In this document: in pieces, positions 28,554 through 41,768 of the stretch
How the letters are laid out: every line of letters begins with the position of its first letter
How positions within the stretch are numbered: position 1 is the first letter of the stretch
IMG/VR virus record: IMGVR_UViG_3300014204_013734
Coordinates: 317,281 to 381,280 of that record
Length of the DNA: 64,000 nucleotides
Reading direction: 5' to 3' (one strand)
Source: a virus
Lineage: Duplodnaviria; Caudoviricetes
Notes under the pieces: generated by a model
Seen by the model: only the letters and a program-made list of their open reading frames with translations
Database searches by the model: none
What the model was told of the DNA's origin: nothing
Program-made: the position numbers and the translations under genes

Positions 28554-29411
28554 ATGGCTATGCCCGCGACCGTCAAGTTGTTGGTGATTGATGATGACGC
28601 CGAAGACCGCCGCTTGGTCCACGACTGGCTAGACGATGCGGATCGGGTCAACTTCAGCGTAGAGGAAGCGTCTACGGCGGAAGAGGGCCTGGAAAAGATG
28701 GAAAAAGGCCGGTATGACGTGGTCCTCCTGGACTATCGTATGCCGGAAAAGGACGGGTTCTGGGTCCTGGAAAGGATGCGTGCCCTTCGTTTGCAAGTCC
28801 CTGTTGTCATTGTCACCAGTCACGGGGACCGTAATGTCCAGACGCAAGCGTTTGAACTTGGCGTTGCGGACTACCTGGAAAAGGGTGCTTTCACTCCTGA
28901 ACTCCTTGAACGCACTTGTCTCTATGCCATTGGCCTGAATGAACGGAAAATTTCCGAAACTTCCGGCCCCGGCGTCGGGGTTCTCATGGAACAGTTGGTA
29001 TCCTTGACCCGTGATTCTGTCAAGGCCCAGTCTGATACGGCCCAGGAAATCCGGGAAATGCGCCGGGAACTGGCGTCAGGATTTGCATCGGTCAAGGAAC
29101 AAGCGTCTGAACACGATAAAAACTGCCAGGACAGGAATACGGCGGTCGTCGGAAAAATAGAAGAACGGGATGCTCCGAAGGGCAAATGGCTTCTGGATTG
29201 GATTGCGGTTCACCCGCTTGCAACCCTGATTCTTGCCCTTATCCTTCTGGCTTCTATTCTCGCACTTGGAGTATTGATTCCCTTGTGGGCGGAACACGTC
29301 ACGGCGGACCAACTCAAAGTGTTGAAAGGTTGTGGGATGTTGCTCTTTTTTCCCGTAATGGGATGGGAAGTACACAATGAATCTGACGGAAACGGATCGC
29401 AAGGAACTTGA
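28554..29411 (+). CDS. receiver (REC) domain fused to coiled coil and C-terminal TM helix
   Basis: VIDDD, LLDYRMP, VTS, YLEK; hydrophobic PLATLILALILLASILALGVLIPLW. Confidence 0.88.
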   Translation: MAMPATVKLLVIDDDAEDRRLVHDWLDDADRVNFSVEEASTAEEGLEKMEKGRYDVVLLDYRMPEKDGFWVLERMRALRLQVPVVIVTSHGDRNVQTQAFELGVADYLEKGAFTPELLERTCLYAIGLNERKISETSGPGVGVLMEQLVSLTRDSVKAQSDTAQEIREMRRELASGFASVKEQASEHDKNCQDRNTAVVGKIEERDAPKGKWLLDWIAVHPLATLILALILLASILALGVLIPLWAEHVTADQLKVLKGCGMLLFFPVMGWEVHNESDGNGSQGT

Positions 29412-31050
29412 ACTTCACAAGGCGCTTATTGAATTGGGTGGACGCCTTATCAGGAACACGATATCCTTGGAAGAAATGGCATGGTTGGTATTAACCCCGG
29501 TCATGCGGTTGACGGGAACTACCGTCGGATTTGTGTCCTACATCGACCCGGAAACCAAGGAAAATGTAGGATTCCTGAACGCCCCTGGAATTGCAGCTTG
29601 CGTAGAACAGAACCAAGGCAGAATGGTCTTTCGGTTTCCAACCGGCAAGGACGACCCCTTGTGGGGTTTTAGTCAACCGGATACCCGTACAGGTTTTTTC
29701 ACAAACAAACCCGTCAAGCACCAGATATCTAAAAACATCCCTTCCGTCGTTCGTTTTCCCATTGACAATTTCCTTTCCGTTCCTGTCGTAGCCGGTAGCA
29801 ACCTGTTAGGCCACGTTGCCTTGGCTAATAAAAAAGGCGGCTTTTCAAACGAAGACATCCGAATCGTCAACCTGTTAGGGGAACTTTACGGTTTGGCTTT
29901 AGACCGCAAATTCTACGAACAGGCCTTATTGGATGCCGAACACAAGGCAACGGAAAAGCTGAATCATAGGTTCAGGGCATTCATGGAAGCGACTCCCGAC
30001 CGGTTGCACATCATCTCTTCAGACGGGGTTTTCCTTGAATCCCACCGGGGAGCCCTTCCCTTCGTGGAGAGTGATCCCTCTAAATATATTGGCAAGACCC
30101 TGCATGATTTGTTTCCTGCTGATGCCGACAAGATGCTGGACAAAGTCCGGGAAGCATTGGCCATGGACGGGACACCGATCATTTGGGAATACACAATATC
30201 CCAACTGCCTGATCATGTTTTTGAAGGCCATCTCATCAAATGTGGTCCTGATGAAGTAATGACCGTCATCAGAGAAGTCACCCAAGCGAAACAGTTGCAG
30301 TCCGATCTTGAACGCAAAGTCGAAGAACGGACTTTGGAACTCAGCCTATCCAATCAAGCGTTGCAGTCCTTCGCCTATGCAGCGTCACACGACCTTCGGG
30401 AACCGTTGAACAAGATACGGGCATATGGGGAACGGTTTGAACGTACACACCCCAACCTAGATGAAAAAGGCAAGGAATACATCGGTGTCATGGTCACGGC
30501 GGCCGAACGCCTGGCCCAGTTGGTAGAGGATCTATTGGTATATTCCAAGGCGGGCGGGAAAGATGAAGCATCCCCGGTTAAAATCCCCCTAAACAGGCTT
30601 ATTGAAGAAACCTTGGGGGATCTTGACGAATCCGTCAAGAATTCCGGCGCCATCGTAGAAGTCGGGGATCTTCCAACGGTTGAAGGTCACGCTGGAACCT
30701 TGCGGGCCGTTTTTCAGAACGTCTTGTCAAATGCTCTAAAATTCCATAAAGTGGGACAACCCCCGAAAGTTCTGGTGTCGGGAAGGGTAGACGGTAGTAT
30801 GGCATTCGTGTCTATACAGGACAATGGAATCGGTTTTGATCCGGCATACAAGGAAAAAATCTTCGCTATTTTTAACAGGCTTCACACCCGGTTTGAATAT
30901 CCGGGTACAGGAATAGGGTTGGCCCTTTGTCGAAGGCTGTTGGCCCAATGCGGCGGAACCGTAACGGCGGACGCCAGACCCAATGAAGGAGCTGTTTTCA
31001 CGATCCAAATCCCGCTCAAATTCTCCTCTGCATTTCCAAAAGGAACCTGA
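29377..31050 (+). CDS. cytoplasmic GAF-PAS sensor histidine kinase
   Basis: NFLSVPV..GHVALANK (GAF); PAS-like; ASHDLREPL, NVLSNALKF, DNGIG, GTGIGLA. Confidence 0.93.
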   Translation: MNLTETDRKELELHKALIELGGRLIRNTISLEEMAWLVLTPVMRLTGTTVGFVSYIDPETKENVGFLNAPGIAACVEQNQGRMVFRFPTGKDDPLWGFSQPDTRTGFFTNKPVKHQISKNIPSVVRFPIDNFLSVPVVAGSNLLGHVALANKKGGFSNEDIRIVNLLGELYGLALDRKFYEQALLDAEHKATEKLNHRFRAFMEATPDRLHIISSDGVFLESHRGALPFVESDPSKYIGKTLHDLFPADADKMLDKVREALAMDGTPIIWEYTISQLPDHVFEGHLIKCGPDEVMTVIREVTQAKQLQSDLERKVEERTLELSLSNQALQSFAYAASHDLREPLNKIRAYGERFERTHPNLDEKGKEYIGVMVTAAERLAQLVEDLLVYSKAGGKDEASPVKIPLNRLIEETLGDLDESVKNSGAIVEVGDLPTVEGHAGTLRAVFQNVLSNALKFHKVGQPPKVLVSGRVDGSMAFVSIQDNGIGFDPAYKEKIFAIFNRLHTRFEYPGTGIGLALCRRLLAQCGGTVTADARPNEGAVFTIQIPLKFSSAFPKGT

Positions 31051-31055
31051 AACCC

Positions 31056-31499
31056 ATGCCTGAAACCGCCCCTTTAGTCATTTTCGCTGAAGACGACCTT
31101 GAAGATTGGGACCTCATCAAGGAAGTTCTGGAAGAATGTGAAGAGTGCCGATCCGGCGCCCTCAAATATGAACACGTGGTTGATGGGGTCGCCCTGATGG
31201 AACGGTTGACCAATCCCGTACCTCAAAAACCAGACATGGTGATGCTGGACCTCAAGATGCCAAAGAAAGATGGTGCGGAATCCTTGGAAGAAATCCGGGC
31301 AAATCCGGAACTCAGACACATTCCGGTCATTATTCTGACCACTTCCCGTTTGGAAGCCGACATCTTTGAAGCTTATCACCGCGGGGCAAATTCCTATGTT
31401 GTAAAACCAGTAACGCACGACACCATTAAACAAGCACTCCACGATATTCAGTACTATTGGACTAAAGTAGCCGTTAAGCCATCCAAAAACCATGCCTGA
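31056..31499 (+). CDS. stand-alone receiver domain (Rcp1-like)
   Basis: AEDD, MLDLKMP, LTTS, GANSYVVKP. Confidence 0.93.
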   Translation: MPETAPLVIFAEDDLEDWDLIKEVLEECEECRSGALKYEHVVDGVALMERLTNPVPQKPDMVMLDLKMPKKDGAESLEEIRANPELRHIPVIILTTSRLEADIFEAYHRGANSYVVKPVTHDTIKQALHDIQYYWTKVAVKPSKNHA

Positions 31500-32029: not shown

Positions 32030-32686
32030 ATGTTAACAAGGGATCAAGTTAAGGAACGTATCCATTACCAGAAGGAATCCCTCACCAAATGTCGCAAAGA
32101 AATTCCAATCCTTTGCAAGGAAGCCGCTACAGAAAAAAACGTTTTTAAAAGTAGGGAGTTGGAACACGAAGCAGCACTTAAACAAGGCGGAAAAGGGGTT
32201 GTAGGACAAGAACATCGGGAATTTCTTCTTGTTTACGCGTGGATGAGAAACCGTCGTTATCGAACTGTGGAACGACGGACGGCAATTGACAACATAGCTG
32301 ACCGTTTTCTGGCAGAACGTTCCTTGGAAAAACTTGTACAGAGAGTTGTGCGACACCTATCTGTCGATCGCGAAGTTATCTGGTTTTGGATGACTTTTGA
32401 TTTCCCTCCAAAGGATATTCTGGAAGGAAAGGCTTCGTTCATGGTGGCGGAAATCGCGAAGAAAAAGATGGAGGAAGCGGAAAAAGACGTCCAAGAAGCT
32501 GAAAAACATTTGGCTAGAGCCGAAGCACACTTTGTTGCGGAAAAAGCCAGATTGGAAGCCAGTATCGAATGGGCTCAGGAAAACCTGAAAAAAGCAACCG
32601 CTGAAGCAACGTACCGCATCAAGGCTTTCGCTGAAATCAAAGCTGCCGTCGGGAATACAATTCAATCGGGTGTGGTGAAAGGGTAA
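32030..32686 (+). CDS. coiled-coil hypothetical protein (paralog A)
   Basis: REFLLVYAWMRNRRYRTVERRT shared with next gene. Confidence 0.7.
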   Translation: MLTRDQVKERIHYQKESLTKCRKEIPILCKEAATEKNVFKSRELEHEAALKQGGKGVVGQEHREFLLVYAWMRNRRYRTVERRTAIDNIADRFLAERSLEKLVQRVVRHLSVDREVIWFWMTFDFPPKDILEGKASFMVAEIAKKKMEEAEKDVQEAEKHLARAEAHFVAEKARLEASIEWAQENLKKATAEATYRIKAFAEIKAAVGNTIQSGVVKG

Positions 32687-32693
32687 TTTCAGT

Positions 32694-33353
32694 ATGAAAC
32701 CGGAAGAATTGAAGAAAGACATTAAGTCCTTAACCGTGTCCCTCATTGAATACCGCAAGAACATCAGGAAATTGATCCTTGAGGCCCGGCAGGAGGAAAA
32801 GACCGACGCTGATCGGAATATCTTACGCGAACGGGCACAAAAGGCTAAGACCAATAAGGATTACTATGGTAGGAAACAGCGTCATCTTCTTCTGGCCTGT
32901 GCCTGGTTGCGTAATTACCGCTACAGGACCGTAGAAGGACGAACGCTGGCCGACAAGGTAAAGGATCCCTGGGAAGCCCGGATGATACGAGAAAACCTTG
33001 CGGAAGCCGTTTCTAATCTACTCCCTGTTGGAAGACAGGAAGTGCTTACCTGGATGACGGTAGACCTTGAACCTCGGGAAGTTGAACGGAAGCTGTACCT
33101 TGAAGCTTTTGAGAAAGCTGAAAAAGAAGTAGCGGAAACTTCCGGAGAAACAGAATTCGCCCAGTGGTTTTTATGCGAAGTGACTACCTTTGTCAAACAA
33201 TTGGAAAACAAAGGCGAAGAATCTTTCGTTCTGAATTTGGCCAGAAAACAGAAGGAAAAAGCGGCTAAGACATTAGAAAAAACGAAGGCCCTTCTGGCGG
33301 GTAAGCAGAGGGCAAGGGACCGTGCAAAAGAAGTTGTTTTCCGGGTAGATTAG
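32694..33353 (+). CDS. coiled-coil hypothetical protein (paralog B)
   Basis: RHLLLACAWLRNYRYRTVEGRT. Confidence 0.7.
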   Translation: MKPEELKKDIKSLTVSLIEYRKNIRKLILEARQEEKTDADRNILRERAQKAKTNKDYYGRKQRHLLLACAWLRNYRYRTVEGRTLADKVKDPWEARMIRENLAEAVSNLLPVGRQEVLTWMTVDLEPREVERKLYLEAFEKAEKEVAETSGETEFAQWFLCEVTTFVKQLENKGEESFVLNLARKQKEKAAKTLEKTKALLAGKQRARDRAKEVVFRVD

Positions 33354-33688
33354 TTTGGAAGTTGTTCATTGACAATTGTAGTACCCAAGTTAGTTTTACG
33401 TTCCCAAAGAAATTCCAATCTGTAGGGAAAAACGTTTGTTGAAGAATCTTAAAGGAAATCCTTTAGATTCGCGTTTTTTCCATAAAACATCAAAATGATC
33501 GTACAGATTCAGGAATTGGGAACTCTAAGGTTCCCTTCCCACAAAAGAAGTAGGTTCGCGTTCCTAATGATTTCCATAGGTTAGGTAAGATTTTGGGTAA
33601 AAACCGTTACTTAAAAACCAAAGGGTTTTTAGGTTCACGTTTTCATCCCAAAAATCTGAATAATAACATAGGTTTGGAATGGGACCCT
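33354..33688 (+). promoter_or_regulatory. AT-rich CRISPR-leader-like region
   Basis: no ORF; TAG(G/A)TTC(G/A)CGTT at 33464, 33551, 33630; CATAGGTT at 33575, 33667; abuts first repeat. Confidence 0.55.
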
Positions 33689-33878
33689 CTTTAAAGGGGT
33701 CCGAACCCCCTTTACACGTTGAAAGTTCCCCCACCGCCACCTGCCGGACCTTGCCATGCTTTAAAAGGGGATCAGGTCCTCTTTTACACGTTGAAAGAAA
33801 ACACGTTGAACAATGGGCATTCCAGCCTCAGCTTCGGTCCTTTCAAGGGGGATACAATCCCCCTTCACACGTTGAATT
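33689..33878 (+). CRISPR. orphan degenerate CRISPR-like mini-array (3 repeats, 2 spacers)
   Basis: repeats of 37-39 nt at 33689, 33759, 33840 (CTTT[A/C]AA-hairpin-ACACGTTGAA); spacers of 33 and 42 nt. Confidence 0.62.
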
Positions 33879-33910
33879 AAAAGCAACCCATAATTCCAAT
33901 TGTCCCAAAG

Positions 33911-33945
33911 AAGTCCCCTGGTTCAAAACCACGGGGCTTTTTTTT
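33911..33945 (+). terminator. intrinsic terminator after mini-array
   Basis: CCCCTGGTT-caa-AACCAcGGGG hairpin followed by a T8 run. Confidence 0.7.
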
Positions 33946-34006
33946 GGCTATGGTCTTTACCAAAGTGGAGGGGCATCCCTACCTCCCCAACTTAAGGAGT
34001 CTTAAA

Positions 34007-34297
34007 ATGCCTATGCAGGACCGACAAGTAACAATCCTGGACGTAATTGCTGATACCGATGGGGCAGCTTTCCTCGTAGGAAGGAAAGGGAATTCCCATC
34101 TATTTGTCATTACGATCACCGGGGCGGCTACCGTCAAGATACAAGGCCGACAAAAAAGCGGTGCTTGGAAGGATTTGACTTCTACGGCAGCGAATGCCGA
34201 ATTGAACGTTGATGATTACGGTTGGTGGGAATTTAGGGCCGTTTCATCGGCGATGGGAATTCCTGCCACAGCTTCGGTCGTTTGGAGTTGGACCTAA
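34007..34297 (+). CDS. small beta-rich putative virion protein
   Basis: TAAGGAG RBS; precedes fibre gene. Confidence 0.6.
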   Translation: MPMQDRQVTILDVIADTDGAAFLVGRKGNSHLFVITITGAATVKIQGRQKSGAWKDLTSTAANAELNVDDYGWWEFRAVSSAMGIPATASVVWSWT

Positions 34298-41228: not shown

Positions 41229-41768
41229 TTAAGCCTTCTTTTTTGCGTGCATCCTTGAAACCATCCAGTTCAGCACTTCCCAAACAACCGGGTTGTGGGG
41301 TTGTTTGGACTGGGCGAGGAAATCCCCGTCAGGGTCTTTCGCTTTCAGGCGCCGTTGCGTTTCGTTGACGAAAAGGTAGATGATTTCTCGTGGAGTAGCC
41401 GCCCAAGCCAAAGCTACTTGGCTTTTTGGAGATTCTAGGGCCTCCGCCCCAAACTTTCCTTCCAAAGCCTCAGACATGCGCCCTATGAGGATGTTGGCGA
41501 TTGTTTCAAGAGGGACCTTGATCCCTTCATAGATTGAAGGGAACATTGGAGTCCAAGTGCCTTCCTTCCAATCCGACAGAATGTGGTTGATCCCATGGGC
41601 GATCCAGAAGGCGTGTTCGTCATCTGAAAACATTTCTTTCGTGATGACAGGTGCTTTGATCTGTACCGCCGATTTTTTCACGTGCCGTTCCAGGCGGTCC
41701 TGGTGCTTCTGGAGTCGGACACGTTCCTTCCGGGCGGTTTCCTTTTTCACTTTGGATTTTTTGGACAT
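41229..41768 (-). CDS. hypothetical protein
   Basis: AAAGGA RBS. Confidence 0.65.
   Translation of the reverse strand: MSKKSKVKKETARKERVRLQKHQDRLERHVKKSAVQIKAPVITKEMFSDDEHAFWIAHGINHILSDWKEGTWTPMFPSIYEGIKVPLETIANILIGRMSEALEGKFGAEALESPKSQVALAWAATPREIIYLFVNETQRRLKAKDPDGDFLAQSKQPHNPVVWEVLNWMVSRMHAKKKA

What the first reader, a model, noticed from the sequence alone, without database searches (positions are those of the whole stretch)
33354..33945. Cas-less leader/mini-array/terminator unit whose repeats conserve structure, not sequence
Seen: R1 CTTTAAAGGGGTCCGAACCCCCTTTACACGTTGAAAG (33689-33725); 33-nt spacer; R2 CTTTAAAAGGGGATCAGGTCCTCTTTTACACGTTGAAAG (33759-33797); 42-nt spacer beginning with an extra ACACGTTGAA; R3 CTTTCAAGGGGGATACAATCCCCCTTCACACGTTGAATT (33840-33878). 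Each repeat forms an 8-10-bp stem with different stem and loop sequence but fixed ends. Upstream is an AT-rich leader with three TAG(G/A)TTC(G/A)CGTT copies; downstream is a hairpin plus T8. Established: TTGAAAG ends and ~37-nt length typify class 1 repeats, and phages use mini-arrays and crRNA mimics (Racr) to exploit or block host Cas. Inference: stem retention implies selection on processed small RNAs that guide or decoy host Cas, or a new repeat-based ncRNA.
Basis: partly seen in the sequence, partly recalled or inferred. Interest (0 to 1): 0.85.

Follow-up and report, generated by a model that had tools for sequence, protein, structure and literature searches.

The report
Cas-less CRISPR-like hairpin array in jumbo phage
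A giant landfill and groundwater phage has gained, between two of its genes, a short non-coding array of hairpin repeats that looks like a small CRISPR array without cas genes and holds a near-copy of the gene next door; it is probably a guide or decoy RNA for the host's CRISPR machinery, but no matching host repeat was found.

Summary
Three things need correcting.

- **Insertion.** The unit is a lineage-specific insertion of about 540 nt (33354-33912). Syntenic relatives lack it.
- **Terminator.** The terminator at 33913-33945 is the ancestral terminator of the upstream gene. It is not part of the unit.
- **Leader.** The "leader" holds three older repeat copies. Two keep a hairpin next to a C(G/A)CGTT tail, so there are five hairpin units. 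Stem arm lengths co-vary in all five, and one unit flips GG/CC to CC/GG.

The 108-aa ORF over the repeats is not coding.

The 27 nt between a duplicated repeat tail and R3 match the 3' end of the adjacent 96-aa gene at 24/27, on the same strand. The three differences are two synonymous and one conservative. A second short segment matches the 218-aa gene upstream.

No Cas1, Cas5d, Cas6, Cas6e, Cas7/DevR, Cas12f-type or reverse transcriptase gene was found in the 381-kb record. No known CRISPR repeat, homologous unit or RNA data set was found.

Best reading (about 0.45): a phage-borne crRNA-like mini-array that borrows host class 1 Cas proteins against sibling phages. A decoy or regulator, or a CRISPR-unrelated structured RNA, remain live rivals.

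The scan noted this stretch before in an overlapping window. It also noted a similar type I-E-like array elsewhere in this genome.

The parts
33354..33912 (+). Lineage-specific non-coding insertion (about 540-560 nt, GC 0.41) between the stop codon of the 219-aa gene and the ancestral terminator.
   Evidence: Syntenic relatives L020-L026 have only a 100-115-nt gap with a terminator here. L018 and L019 carry the unit 100% identical.
33369..33396 (+). Weak sigma-70-like promoter candidate, TTGACA-N16-TAGTTT. It may not be needed, because the unit lies downstream of + strand genes with no terminator in between.
   Evidence: Read from the sequence. It falls below the threshold of the promoter scan.
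33402..33420 (+). 19-nt segment that is 18/19 identical to the 218-aa gene at 32092-32110, same strand. It starts with TCCCAAAGAA, which recurs at 33903.
   Evidence: The ungapped score of 16 was reached by 1% of 200 shuffles within +/-7 kb.
33444..33475 (+). Older repeat unit A: an 11-bp hairpin with one bulge (loop AAAT), running into the tail CGCGTT.
33551..33562 (+). Older repeat unit B: the tail TAGGTTCGCGTT, with no good hairpin directly upstream.
33609..33641 (+). Older repeat unit C: an 11-bp hairpin (loop AAAG) followed by TT and the tail CACGTT. Its upper pairs are CC/GG where the other units have GG/CC.
   Evidence: In run X3 the loop reads CTTT instead of AAAG and the stem is kept.
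33689..33725 (+). Repeat R1: an 8-bp stem, a 7-nt loop and the tail ACACGTTGAAAG.
   Evidence: Run X3 lacks one C at 33706, which would give a perfect 9-bp stem.
33726..33758 (+). Spacer S1, 33 nt, GC 0.70. No target was found.
33759..33797 (+). Repeat R2: an 11-bp stem with two G-U pairs, a 3-nt loop and the tail ACACGTTGAAAG.
33801..33812 (+). Duplicated repeat tail ACACGTTGAACA with no hairpin of its own. It is a 15-nt tandem duplication of R2's tail.
33813..33839 (+). Spacer S2 core, 27 nt. It is 24/27 identical to 34253-34279 in the 96-aa gene and is bounded exactly by the duplicated tail and R3.
   Evidence: One search gives 24/28. One search gives 27/31 with E = 3.6e-4 genome-wide. One search gives score 19, reached by 0 of 200 shuffles. 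In frame it reads MGIPASASV against MGIPATASV.
33840..33878 (+). Repeat R3, the last one: a 9-bp stem, a 3-nt loop and the tail ACACGTTGAATT, whose last two bases differ from R1 and R2.
33896..33912 (+). 17-nt segment that is 15/17 like 32085-32101 of the 218-aa gene. It contains the second TCCCAAAGAA. Together with 33402-33420 it makes overlapping halves of one gene-like 26-mer.
   Evidence: (family D6). On its own its score of 11 is at the null level.
33913..33945 (+). Intrinsic terminator (bulged stem plus T8). It is ancestral and shared with relatives that lack the unit.
   Evidence: One search gives -20.6 kcal/mol and z = -3.7. One search shows the homologous terminator and downstream stretch in L020.
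34253..34279 (+). Protospacer-like site in the 3' end of the phage's own 96-aa gene (34007-34297). It has 3 mismatches to S2 and the 5' flank GCG.
32085..32110 (+). Site in the 218-aa gene (32030-32686) that the two end segments of the unit copy.

Best explanation
This is a phage-borne, Cas-less, CRISPR-like mini-array.

Shown:
- About 540 nt of non-coding DNA were inserted into the 3' UTR of the 219-aa gene in this phage lineage only.
- The insertion carries tandem units on the + strand with a period of 66-87 nt. Each has a C(G/A)CGTT tail, and five of them have a hairpin directly upstream.
- The three youngest units (R1-R3) have CRISPR dimensions: 37-39-nt repeats, a 33-nt spacer, a 12-nt tail ending GTTGAAAG, and a last repeat that is degenerate at its 3' end.
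- One spacer is a near-copy of the neighbouring 96-aa gene.

Inferred:
- The array is transcribed by read-through from the upstream operon, or from a weak promoter of its own, up to the old terminator.
- A host class 1 Cas endoribonuclease (Cas6 or Cas5d type) cuts at the 3' base of each hairpin. This leaves the conserved tail as the 5' handle.
- The resulting crRNA-like RNAs load into the host effector complex.
- S2 has the sense of the coding strand, so it would pair with DNA and not with the mRNA. It would direct the host complex against sibling phages that carry the exactly matching allele of the 96-aa gene.
- The phage's own allele would be spared by three mismatches, an unsuitable flank, or both.
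- The divergence between repeats, with hairpin and handle kept, would reduce loss of the array by recombination without losing recognition by Cas proteins.
For: - Architecture and significance.
- Selection on hairpin plus tail: the tail is 10/10 in four copies against 67-74% identity over the repeats. Run lengths co-vary in five stems and two pairs are flipped. Strain X3 changes a loop and loses a bulge.
- S2 is sharply bounded by repeat elements and matches 34253-34279 at 24/27. The differences are two synonymous and one conservative change, as expected for a copy of a diverged allele.
- A second segment copies the 218-aa gene.
- S1 is a compositional outlier, GC 0.70 against 0.41 for the unit.
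- In run X3 the flanks and the 5' part of the unit align at 95-99%, but 33736-33860 has no aligned contig. One contig leaves our sequence at 33685. Another carries two R1-type tails 82 nt apart.
- The unit is absent from syntenic relatives, so it is an accessory gain.
- No cas genes were found among those sought.
- The same genome has a second Cas-less array with diverged, recognisably type I-E-like repeats. One of its spacers is 25/27 identical to a gene about 840 nt away.
- Known precedents: viral mini-arrays against related viruses (PMC6858448, PMC11656645), and viral arrays of degenerate repeat-like units with short spacers (bioRxiv 10.1101/2024.10.29.618823).
Against: - No real CRISPR repeat resembling R1-R3 was found. 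Rfam gave none. No genuine array with repeats ending ACGTTGAAAG turned up among the genomes of 185,579 species. Phage and plasmid collections gave nothing.
- Known viral mini-arrays carry repeats identical to the host's (PMC11656645). These repeats are only 67-74% alike.
- The host and its Cas type are unknown.
- S2 follows a duplicated tail that has no hairpin of its own. Canonical cutting at R2's hairpin would put 15 non-matching bases ahead of the match.
- The perfectly matching allele was not found anywhere. The variant strain in X3 has the same allele as this phage at the target.
- S1 has no target.
- The degenerate units lie on the leader side, not the trailer side as in normal arrays.
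- There are no expression data.
Confidence: 0.45

Rival explanations
1. The unit is an RNA anti-CRISPR or regulatory crRNA-like array (Racr or Cracr type). The hairpin-plus-handle units soak up host Cas6, Cas5 or Cas7 proteins, or load short guides that bind without cutting. This would shut down or redirect host CRISPR immunity rather than attack other phages.
For: - Hairpin and handle are the parts kept under selection, and several diverged copies could match several host Cas variants.
- There are no cas genes.
- Racrs are solitary or small repeat sets in phages (PMC10651486).
- Cracr arrays have degenerate repeat-like units and 21-24-nt spacers arranged as multi-spacer arrays.
- S2 is short (27 nt) and its handle lacks a hairpin, which fits a non-canonical product.
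Against: - The one identifiable spacer copies a phage structural-region gene. It does not copy a host cas promoter or toxin gene, and no host target could be tested.
- No host repeat is known for it to mimic.
Confidence: 0.2
2. The unit is a structured RNA array unrelated to CRISPR. Tandem hairpin plus ACGUU-type modules in a 3' UTR would serve as binding sites for a phage or host RNA-binding protein or nuclease, for example in processing, stability or titration. The resemblance to CRISPR would then be convergent.
For: - No CRISPR repeat match was found anywhere.
- There are five hairpin units in two sub-types, including ones in the supposed leader, which is unlike a normal array.
- CGTT occurs 10 times on the + strand against once for its complement.
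- The unit is unique to this lineage.
Against: - This does not explain why a 27-nt segment, bounded exactly by repeat elements, copies the neighbouring gene.
- It does not explain the CRISPR-like sizes.
- It does not explain why the same genome holds a recognisable type I-E-like array with the same habit.
Confidence: 0.2
3. The unit is a decaying relic or recombination scar. It would be a captured array or a patchwork of local duplications, possibly integrated from a small circle, with no present function.
For: - The repeats have diverged, a tail is duplicated, and the spacers are short or odd.
- The two ends of the insertion carry overlapping halves of one 218-aa-gene-like 26-mer around a 10-nt direct repeat. 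That looks like a junction left by integration or unequal crossing-over.
- Relatives do without the unit.
Against: - The 10-nt tail is perfectly kept in four copies while the rest differs by about 30%.
- Stems are kept by matched changes in both arms.
- The changes in strain X3 spare or improve the stems.
Confidence: 0.1
4. The repeats are DNA-level sites, that is, protein-binding inverted repeats for replication, packaging or site-specific recombination (integron attC-like).
For: - The region is AT-rich with repeated short motifs and inverted repeats.
- attC sites also conserve structure and not sequence, and R3's GTTGAAT fits the GTTRRRY core.
Against: - The feature is strand-specific: G-T pairs work on one strand only, and all seven tails lie on the + strand.
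- Only R3 fits the attC core, and no matching inverse core is seen.
- The 33-42-nt intervals are far shorter than gene cassettes.
- The unit is absent from relatives, so it is not an essential origin or packaging site.
Confidence: 0.03
5. ORF 33679-34005 encodes a 108-aa protein with repeated HVE motifs. All four ACACGTTGAA copies lie in one frame, with spacings of 72, 15 and 66.
For: - The frame is open.
- Gene callers in public assemblies call it a gene.
- The in-frame spacing has a chance of about 1 in 9.
Against: - Its codon-usage score is -0.06. Neighbouring genes score 0.24-0.36, and the 5th percentile of real gene windows is 0.10.
- It has no homologue among 5.8 billion proteins.
- It runs through the ancestral terminator and through DNA that is non-coding in relatives.
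- A 1-nt deletion in strain X3 would break the frame.
Confidence: 0.02

Closest known systems
Virus-borne mini-CRISPR arrays (Saccharolobus portogloboviruses SPV1/SPV2; Medvedeva et al. 2019, PMC6858448; review PMC11656645)
   Same: Both are arrays of one or two spacers in a virus with no cas genes. The identifiable spacer matches a close variant of a gene of the same virus family, which points to competition between related viruses through the host's Cas proteins.
   Different: - The known cases have repeats identical to the host arrays. Here the repeats are 67-74% alike and match no known array.
- The host is bacterial and unknown.
- The spacer matches the gene right next to the array, and the perfectly matching allele has not been seen.
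Viral Cracr arrays of crRNA-like regulatory RNAs (Liu et al., bioRxiv 10.1101/2024.10.29.618823)
   Same: Both have degenerate repeat-like units that keep the hairpin and handle, shortened spacers, stacking into multi-spacer transcription units in phages, and no cas genes.
   Different: - Cracr spacers match host cas promoters or CreT toxin promoters and derive from host CreA/CreR. Here the only match is to a phage gene, and no host counterpart is known.
- The described cases are types V-A, I-B, I-C, I-E and I-F. This repeat type is unassigned.
RNA anti-CRISPRs (Racr; Camara-Wilpert et al. 2023, PMC10651486)
   Same: Both are phage-encoded small non-coding repeat mimics with a retained stem-loop, and Cas-less.
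   Different: - Racrs are defined by mimicry of a known host repeat and are mostly solitary units.
- Here no mimicked repeat is known, and there are spacer-like inserts.
The type I-E-like Cas-less array of the same genome (G000:C1:197085-197255)
   Same: Both have individually diverged repeats with kept hairpins, no cas genes, and a spacer that is a near-copy of a nearby gene on the same strand (25/27 there).
   Different: That array is recognisably type I-E-like, with 27-nt repeats and shorter periods. The present repeats are 37-39 nt with a GTTGAAAG-type end and no assignable type.
Class 1 repeats with a hairpin followed by an 11-12-nt tail ending in TTGAAAC/G (type I-C, recalled from memory), and type V-K repeats ending GGGTTGAAAG (PMC12416283)
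   Same: The geometry is the same: a stem-loop, then about 12 nt ending TTGAAAG. The repeat is about 37 nt and the period about 72 nt.
   Different: Sequence similarity is limited to the last 6-8 bases. The I-C comparison is a lead from memory and was not tested here.

Membership tests
Virus-borne mini-CRISPR array | Two or more direct repeats separated by spacers of CRISPR size | tested here: met
   The repeats are 37-39 nt, one spacer is 33 nt, and the periods are 72 and 81 nt. A covariance model from R2 and R3 finds R1 at E = 1.6e-7.
Virus-borne mini-CRISPR array | Repeats identical or nearly identical to each other and to the host's arrays | tested here: not met
   The copies are 67-74% alike. 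No genuine array with repeats ending ACGTTGAAAG was found among the genomes of 185,579 species. The host is unknown, so the host half of this feature is only weakly tested.
Virus-borne mini-CRISPR array | Spacers match related viruses | tested here: inconclusive
   S2 matches the phage's own 96-aa gene at 24/27 with synonymous-type differences. Relatives at 67-81% protein identity match worse, at 16-18/28. No exact protospacer is present in IMG/VR. S1 has no match.
Virus-borne mini-CRISPR array | No cas genes in the virus | tested here: met
   Cas6, Cas5d, Cas1, Cas6e, Cas7/DevR and the Cas12f-TnpB zinc ribbon are absent from the 381-kb record. The record is rated 72% complete, and the 444-kb contig could not be searched.
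RNA anti-CRISPR (Racr) | Mimics the repeat of a CRISPR array of the host | tested here: inconclusive
   No related repeat was found in the collections searched. The host is not identified.
RNA anti-CRISPR (Racr) | Expressed as a small RNA that binds Cas proteins | not testable with these tools
   No RNA run holding the stretch is listed. This needs wet-lab work.
Cracr array (viral crRNA-like regulatory RNAs) | Degenerate repeat-like units that keep hairpin and handle, stacked with short spacers | tested here: met
   compared with the description.
Cracr array (viral crRNA-like regulatory RNAs) | Spacer partly complementary to a host cas or creT promoter and related to a host CreA/CreR | not testable with these tools
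   The host is unknown. The only match found is to a phage coding region.
Canonical CRISPR repeat families (Rfam CRISPR-DR) | Match to a curated repeat model | tested here: not met
   There was no CRISPR-DR hit at E <= 10. The control was weak: the type I-E-like array of the same genome scored only E = 2.9. This is therefore poor evidence of absence.
Diversity-generating retroelement (template and variable repeat) | A reverse transcriptase nearby, and differences confined to adenines of the template | tested here: not met
   There is no RVT_1 match in the record. The three differences are C/A, A/T and T/A. The matching stretch is 27 nt, far shorter than a template repeat.
Protein-coding gene (ORF 33679-34005) | Codon usage of the genome, homologues, and a frame kept between strains | tested here: not met

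The most novel reading that the evidence does not exclude
The unit, like the type I-E-like array elsewhere in this genome, is an RNA-guided homing or exclusion cassette. A Cas-less array would carry guides against the 'empty-site' alleles of its own flanking genes. In a mixed infection the host's Cas nuclease would cut the sibling phage next to the insertion site. Recombinational repair from the array-bearing genome would then copy the array and its linked resistant alleles into the sibling. This would be a CRISPR counterpart of a homing endonuclease gene. The repeats would be free to drift as long as hairpin and handle survive.
Probability: 0.12. Interest if true: 0.9.

Novelty: new variant of a known kind. 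Interest (0 to 1): 0.55.

Why it matters
If the reading holds, three things follow.

- Bacterial jumbo phages carry Cas-less arrays whose repeats have drifted far from any host repeat while keeping only the hairpin and the handle. That would define the minimum a hijacked Cas system needs in order to accept a foreign guide. Repeat-identity searches for viral mini-arrays would then miss a whole class.
- Two such arrays of different repeat type sit in one genome. Each holds near-copies of the genes beside it. This points to allele-level warfare, or homing, between sibling phages at a tail-fibre-proximal locus. The idea can be tested with defined constructs.
- If the unit is instead unrelated to CRISPR, it is a clean case of a young, structure-selected tandem RNA element whose origin as an insertion can be dated against relatives.

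Tried and rejected
- **Coding reading of ORF 33679-34005.** Rejected.
- **tRNA or tmRNA.** None in the window.
- **Rfam.** Only chance-level microRNA hits.
- **Diversity-generating retroelement.** Rejected: no reverse transcriptase and the wrong mismatch pattern.
- **TAG read-through of the 219-aa gene into the unit.** Rejected: the genome has 35 tRNAs and no suppressor, and TAG ends 29 long ORFs.
- **Stem-loop-plus-promoter cassette.** TTGAAA would serve as the -35 box, but no -10 box lies at the right distance after R1 or R2 (read).
- **Decayed third paralogue of the 218/219-aa genes.** Only a 16-residue stretch, at E = 0.08, supports it.
- **Homologous units elsewhere.** L040 is a genuine but unrelated 47-nt-repeat array that contains the 10-mer by coincidence.
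- **Host arrays.** The species-genome scan gave only tandem duplications and coding repeats.
- **Phage and plasmid BLAST.** Chance hits only. The Fulvitalea plasmid hit is a single intergenic site.
- **Targets of S1 and S2.** No exact match in IMG/VR. S1 gave nothing significant in phages or plasmids or in the genome at DNA or peptide level.
- **Expression.** No RNA holder is listed for the stretch, so nothing can be said about transcription.
- **Parts of the stretch without contig cover in run X4.** Not used.
- **Weak model hit at 41501-41542.** It lies inside a well-scoring - strand gene and is taken as chance.
- **Weak Cas12f-type zinc-ribbon hit at genome 166029.** It belongs to a DNA methylase with a LAGLIDADG insert.
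- **The 444-kb ENA contig.** It could not be searched for cas genes.
- **First script for neighbour matches.** It timed out and was replaced by a BLAST test with shuffles.
Full report
**Setting**

The window is the last 64 kb of a single 381,280-bp virus record. The record is rated about 72% complete. The same DNA lies in a 444,386-bp ENA contig and in a 3.3-kb Logan contig. It occurs in landfill and groundwater metagenomes.

Upstream of the finding, all on the + strand, lie:
- a histidine kinase and two response regulators;
- a 160-aa gene;
- two tandem paralogues of 218 and 219 aa.

Downstream lie a 96-aa gene (34007-34297, with an AAGGAG ribosome-binding site) and a 1876-aa protein with tail-fibre-like repeats.

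**Check of the observation**

On the + strand R1, R2 and R3 fold into stems of 8, 11 and 9 bp with loops of 7, 3 and 3 nt. R2 depends on G-U pairs and folds markedly worse on the other strand.

The feature is not chance:
- ACACGTTGAA occurs four times within 160 nt. About 0.7 copies are expected in the whole genome.
- The three copies elsewhere have no hairpin.
- A covariance model built only from R2 and R3 finds R1 at E = 1.6e-7 with filters off, and finds nothing else credible in 64 kb.

One point is overstated. R1-R3 share an AAGGGG/CCCCTT stem core, so they differ mainly at the top of the stem and in the loop.

**The unit is an insertion and the terminator is older**

Homologues of the 96-aa protein at 81%, 73% and 67% identity sit in the same gene order. 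That order runs kinase, regulator, 162-aa gene, 212-220-aa gene, 96-aa gene, large protein.

In those relatives the gap before the 96-aa gene is only 100-115 nt. It holds a terminator followed by a stretch that aligns with 33913-34006 of the window.

So about 540 nt (33354 to about 33895-33912) were added in this lineage. They lie between the stop codon of the 219-aa gene and that gene's own terminator.

The unit therefore lies in a 3' UTR and would be transcribed on the + strand by read-through alone. A TTGACA-N16-TAGTTT motif at 33369-33396 is a weak candidate promoter, below the threshold of the scan tool.

**The 'leader' is made of older repeats**

The motif C[AG]CGTT occurs seven times in the 597 nt, where 0.2 are expected. 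All seven are on the + strand, at 33470, 33557, 33636, 33715, 33787, 33802 and 33868. The spacings are 87, 79, 79, 72, 15 and 66 nt.

Two of them, unit A and unit C, are preceded directly by 11-bp hairpins. These hairpins share the basal CTTAAA...TTTAG arms of R1-R3.

Across the five hairpins the A-run of the 5' arm and the T-run of the 3' arm have the same length every time: 3/3, 5/5, 3/3, 4/4 and 2/2. Unit C has CC/GG where the others have GG/CC.

Genome-wide, only 9 of 285 C[AG]CGTT sites have a clean hairpin of about 8 bp or more directly upstream. Four of those 9 are in this locus.

Together with the perfectly kept 10-nt tail in repeats that are otherwise 67-74% alike, this is good evidence of selection on a hairpin plus a single-stranded tail on the + strand.

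**The ORF is not a gene**

ORF 33679-34005 reads HVE at each tail, because the tail spacings are multiples of three. The evidence against it is as follows.
- Its codon-usage score is -0.06. The four neighbouring genes score 0.24-0.36, and the 5th percentile of real 108-codon windows is 0.10.
- It has no homologue in 5.8 billion proteins.
- It runs through the ancestral terminator.
- A second strain has a 1-nt deletion inside it.

**Spacer-like content**

The 27 nt at 33813-33839 lie exactly between the duplicated tail ACACGTTGAACA and the first base of R3. They match 34253-34279 in the 3' end of the 96-aa gene at 24/27, on the same strand.

In the gene's frame the three differences are two synonymous changes and one Thr/Ser change. 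BLAST over the genome gives 27/31 with E = 3.6e-4. Within +/-7 kb the score is reached by none of 200 shuffles.

The match stops dead at both repeat borders. The known relatives match worse, at 16-18/28. The source was therefore an allele closer to this phage than any relative in hand, and no exact copy exists in IMG/VR.

A second segment, 33402-33420, is 18/19 identical to the 218-aa gene at 32092-32110, and 1% of shuffles reach its score.

S1 (33 nt) has GC 0.70 against 0.41 for the unit, and no match was found anywhere.

**A second strain**

Contigs of one further groundwater run (X3) cover the flanks and the 5' part of the unit at 95-99%, with indels.
- Unit C's loop reads CTTT instead of AAAG, with the stem intact.
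- R1 lacks one C at 33706, which would turn its bulged stem into a perfect 9-bp stem.
- One contig leaves our sequence at 33685, just before R1.
- Another carries two R1-type tails 82 nt apart.
- No contig aligns to 33736-33860.
- The contig that re-joins at 33860 shows a different 5' half of the last repeat and a different preceding spacer.

This fits turnover of repeat-spacer units between strains. The contigs are short and have depth 3-4, and I could not read their full letters, so this is a pointer and not a result. X1 and X2 may be the source samples and are not independent.

**No cas genes and no related repeat**

Pfam models for Cas6, Cas5d, Cas1, Cas6e and Cas7/DevR find nothing in the record. 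A sub-threshold Cas12f-type zinc-ribbon hit belongs to a DNA methylase with a LAGLIDADG insert. The remaining 63 kb of the 444-kb contig could not be searched.

Searches for a related repeat or unit also failed.
- Rfam has no CRISPR-DR match. The control array from the same genome barely scores (E = 2.9), so this test is weak.
- A scan of the genomes of 185,579 species for two ACGTTGAAAG ends 50-80 nt apart gave tandem duplications and coding repeats, but no genuine array.
- Scans of IMG/VR and of JGI metagenomes gave no homologous unit.

**How it most likely works**

The dimensions fit a class 1 CRISPR array read from left to right:
- repeats of 37-39 nt;
- a spacer of 33 nt;
- a hairpin followed by 12 nt ending GTTGAAAG;
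- complementary CTTT...AAAG ends;
- a last repeat that is degenerate at its 3' end.

Repeat ends of the GGGTTGAAAG kind are documented for type V-K arrays (PMC12416283). The hairpin-plus-11-nt-handle geometry of type I-C is from my memory and untested.

The same genome holds a second Cas-less array of recognisably type I-E-like repeats. Those repeats are also individually diverged, and one spacer is 25/27 identical to a gene about 840 nt away.

[quoted passage not shown] So are viral arrays of degenerate repeat-like units with short spacers (bioRxiv 10.1101/2024.10.29.618823).

I therefore rate as most likely (0.45) that the RNA is cut at the hairpin bases by a host Cas endoribonuclease and loaded into the host effector. 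S2 has the sense of the coding strand, so it would address DNA and not the mRNA. Its target would be the exactly matching allele in sibling phages. All steps after 'transcribed on the + strand' are inference.

Weak points:
- There is no known host repeat.
- S2's handle lacks its own hairpin.
- The target allele is unseen.
- Degenerate units sit on the leader side.

**Rivals**

- A decoy or regulatory role (Racr or Cracr type, 0.2) uses the same parts and differs only in what the loaded complexes do.
- A CRISPR-unrelated protein-binding RNA array (0.2) fits the failure to find any related repeat and the two repeat sub-types. It does not explain the bounded gene copy.
- A functionless relic (0.1) is opposed by the kept tails and the matched stem changes.
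- DNA-level sites and a small protein are unlikely (0.03 and 0.02).

**Unexplained**

The two ends of the insertion carry overlapping halves of a single 26-mer that is 24/26 like 32085-32110. The 3' half sits at 33402-33420 and the 5' half at 33896-33912. They overlap in a 10-nt direct repeat, TCCCAAAGAA.

This is the arrangement left by integration of a circle through a short core, or by unequal exchange within an array. I could not decide between these. The downstream half alone is at chance level, and part of it belongs to the terminator stem.

**Verdict**

The feature is real and under selection for RNA structure. It is a young accessory insertion and is best filed as a new variant of phage-borne Cas-less CRISPR-like arrays. 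Membership in any CRISPR repeat family is unproven.

Earlier notes of this scan had already flagged this stretch and the S2 match in an overlapping window, and a comparable type I-E-like array elsewhere in the genome. I found the S2 match independently and verified one spacer of the other array.

Noticed in passing
window 33402-33420 and 33896-33917; target 32085-32110: The two ends of the insertion hold overlapping halves of one 26-mer that is 24/26 like the 218-aa gene. They share the 10-nt direct repeat TCCCAAAGAA and an ATTCCAAT beside it. This is an attL/attR-like or circle-junction-like arrangement.
   Followed up: partly
G000:C1:197085-197255 and 198039-198065 (outside the window): A second Cas-less array has four individually diverged type I-E-like repeats. 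One of its spacers is 25/27 identical to a gene about 840 nt downstream on the same strand.
   Followed up: partly
L020:3478-3552: A syntenic relative carries a tRNA with a CUA (amber-reading) anticodon, which ARAGORN calls tRNA-Pyl, between its 56-aa and 220-aa genes. The window's genome has 35 tRNAs and no suppressor, and it uses TAG as a stop.
   Followed up: partly
window 32030-32686 and 32694-33353: The 218-aa and 219-aa genes are tandem paralogues (36% identity over 127 residues). Relatives have a single 212-220-aa gene here.
   Followed up: partly
window 28554-31499: A full two-component set sits inside the phage record just upstream: a GAF-PAS histidine kinase of 557 aa and two receiver-domain proteins. 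It is conserved in the syntenic relatives.
   Followed up: no
G000:C1:163905-166622 (L255:406-3123): A 905-aa protein combines an N6/N4 DNA methylase with a LAGLIDADG homing-endonuclease domain. It may be an intein or a fused endonuclease.
   Followed up: partly
L040 (Ga0255346_1014722), whole 5.8-kb contig: This is a genuine CRISPR array of more than 70 identical 47-nt repeats that happen to contain ACACGTTGAA. It is unrelated to the finding.
   Followed up: yes
window 33813-33839 against 34253-34279: Counted from the first spacer base, the three mismatches fall at positions 6, 12 and 16. Positions 6 and 12 are the ones that type I effector complexes leave unpaired. They are also third codon positions, so the coincidence is not significant (about 0.2).
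   Followed up: partly
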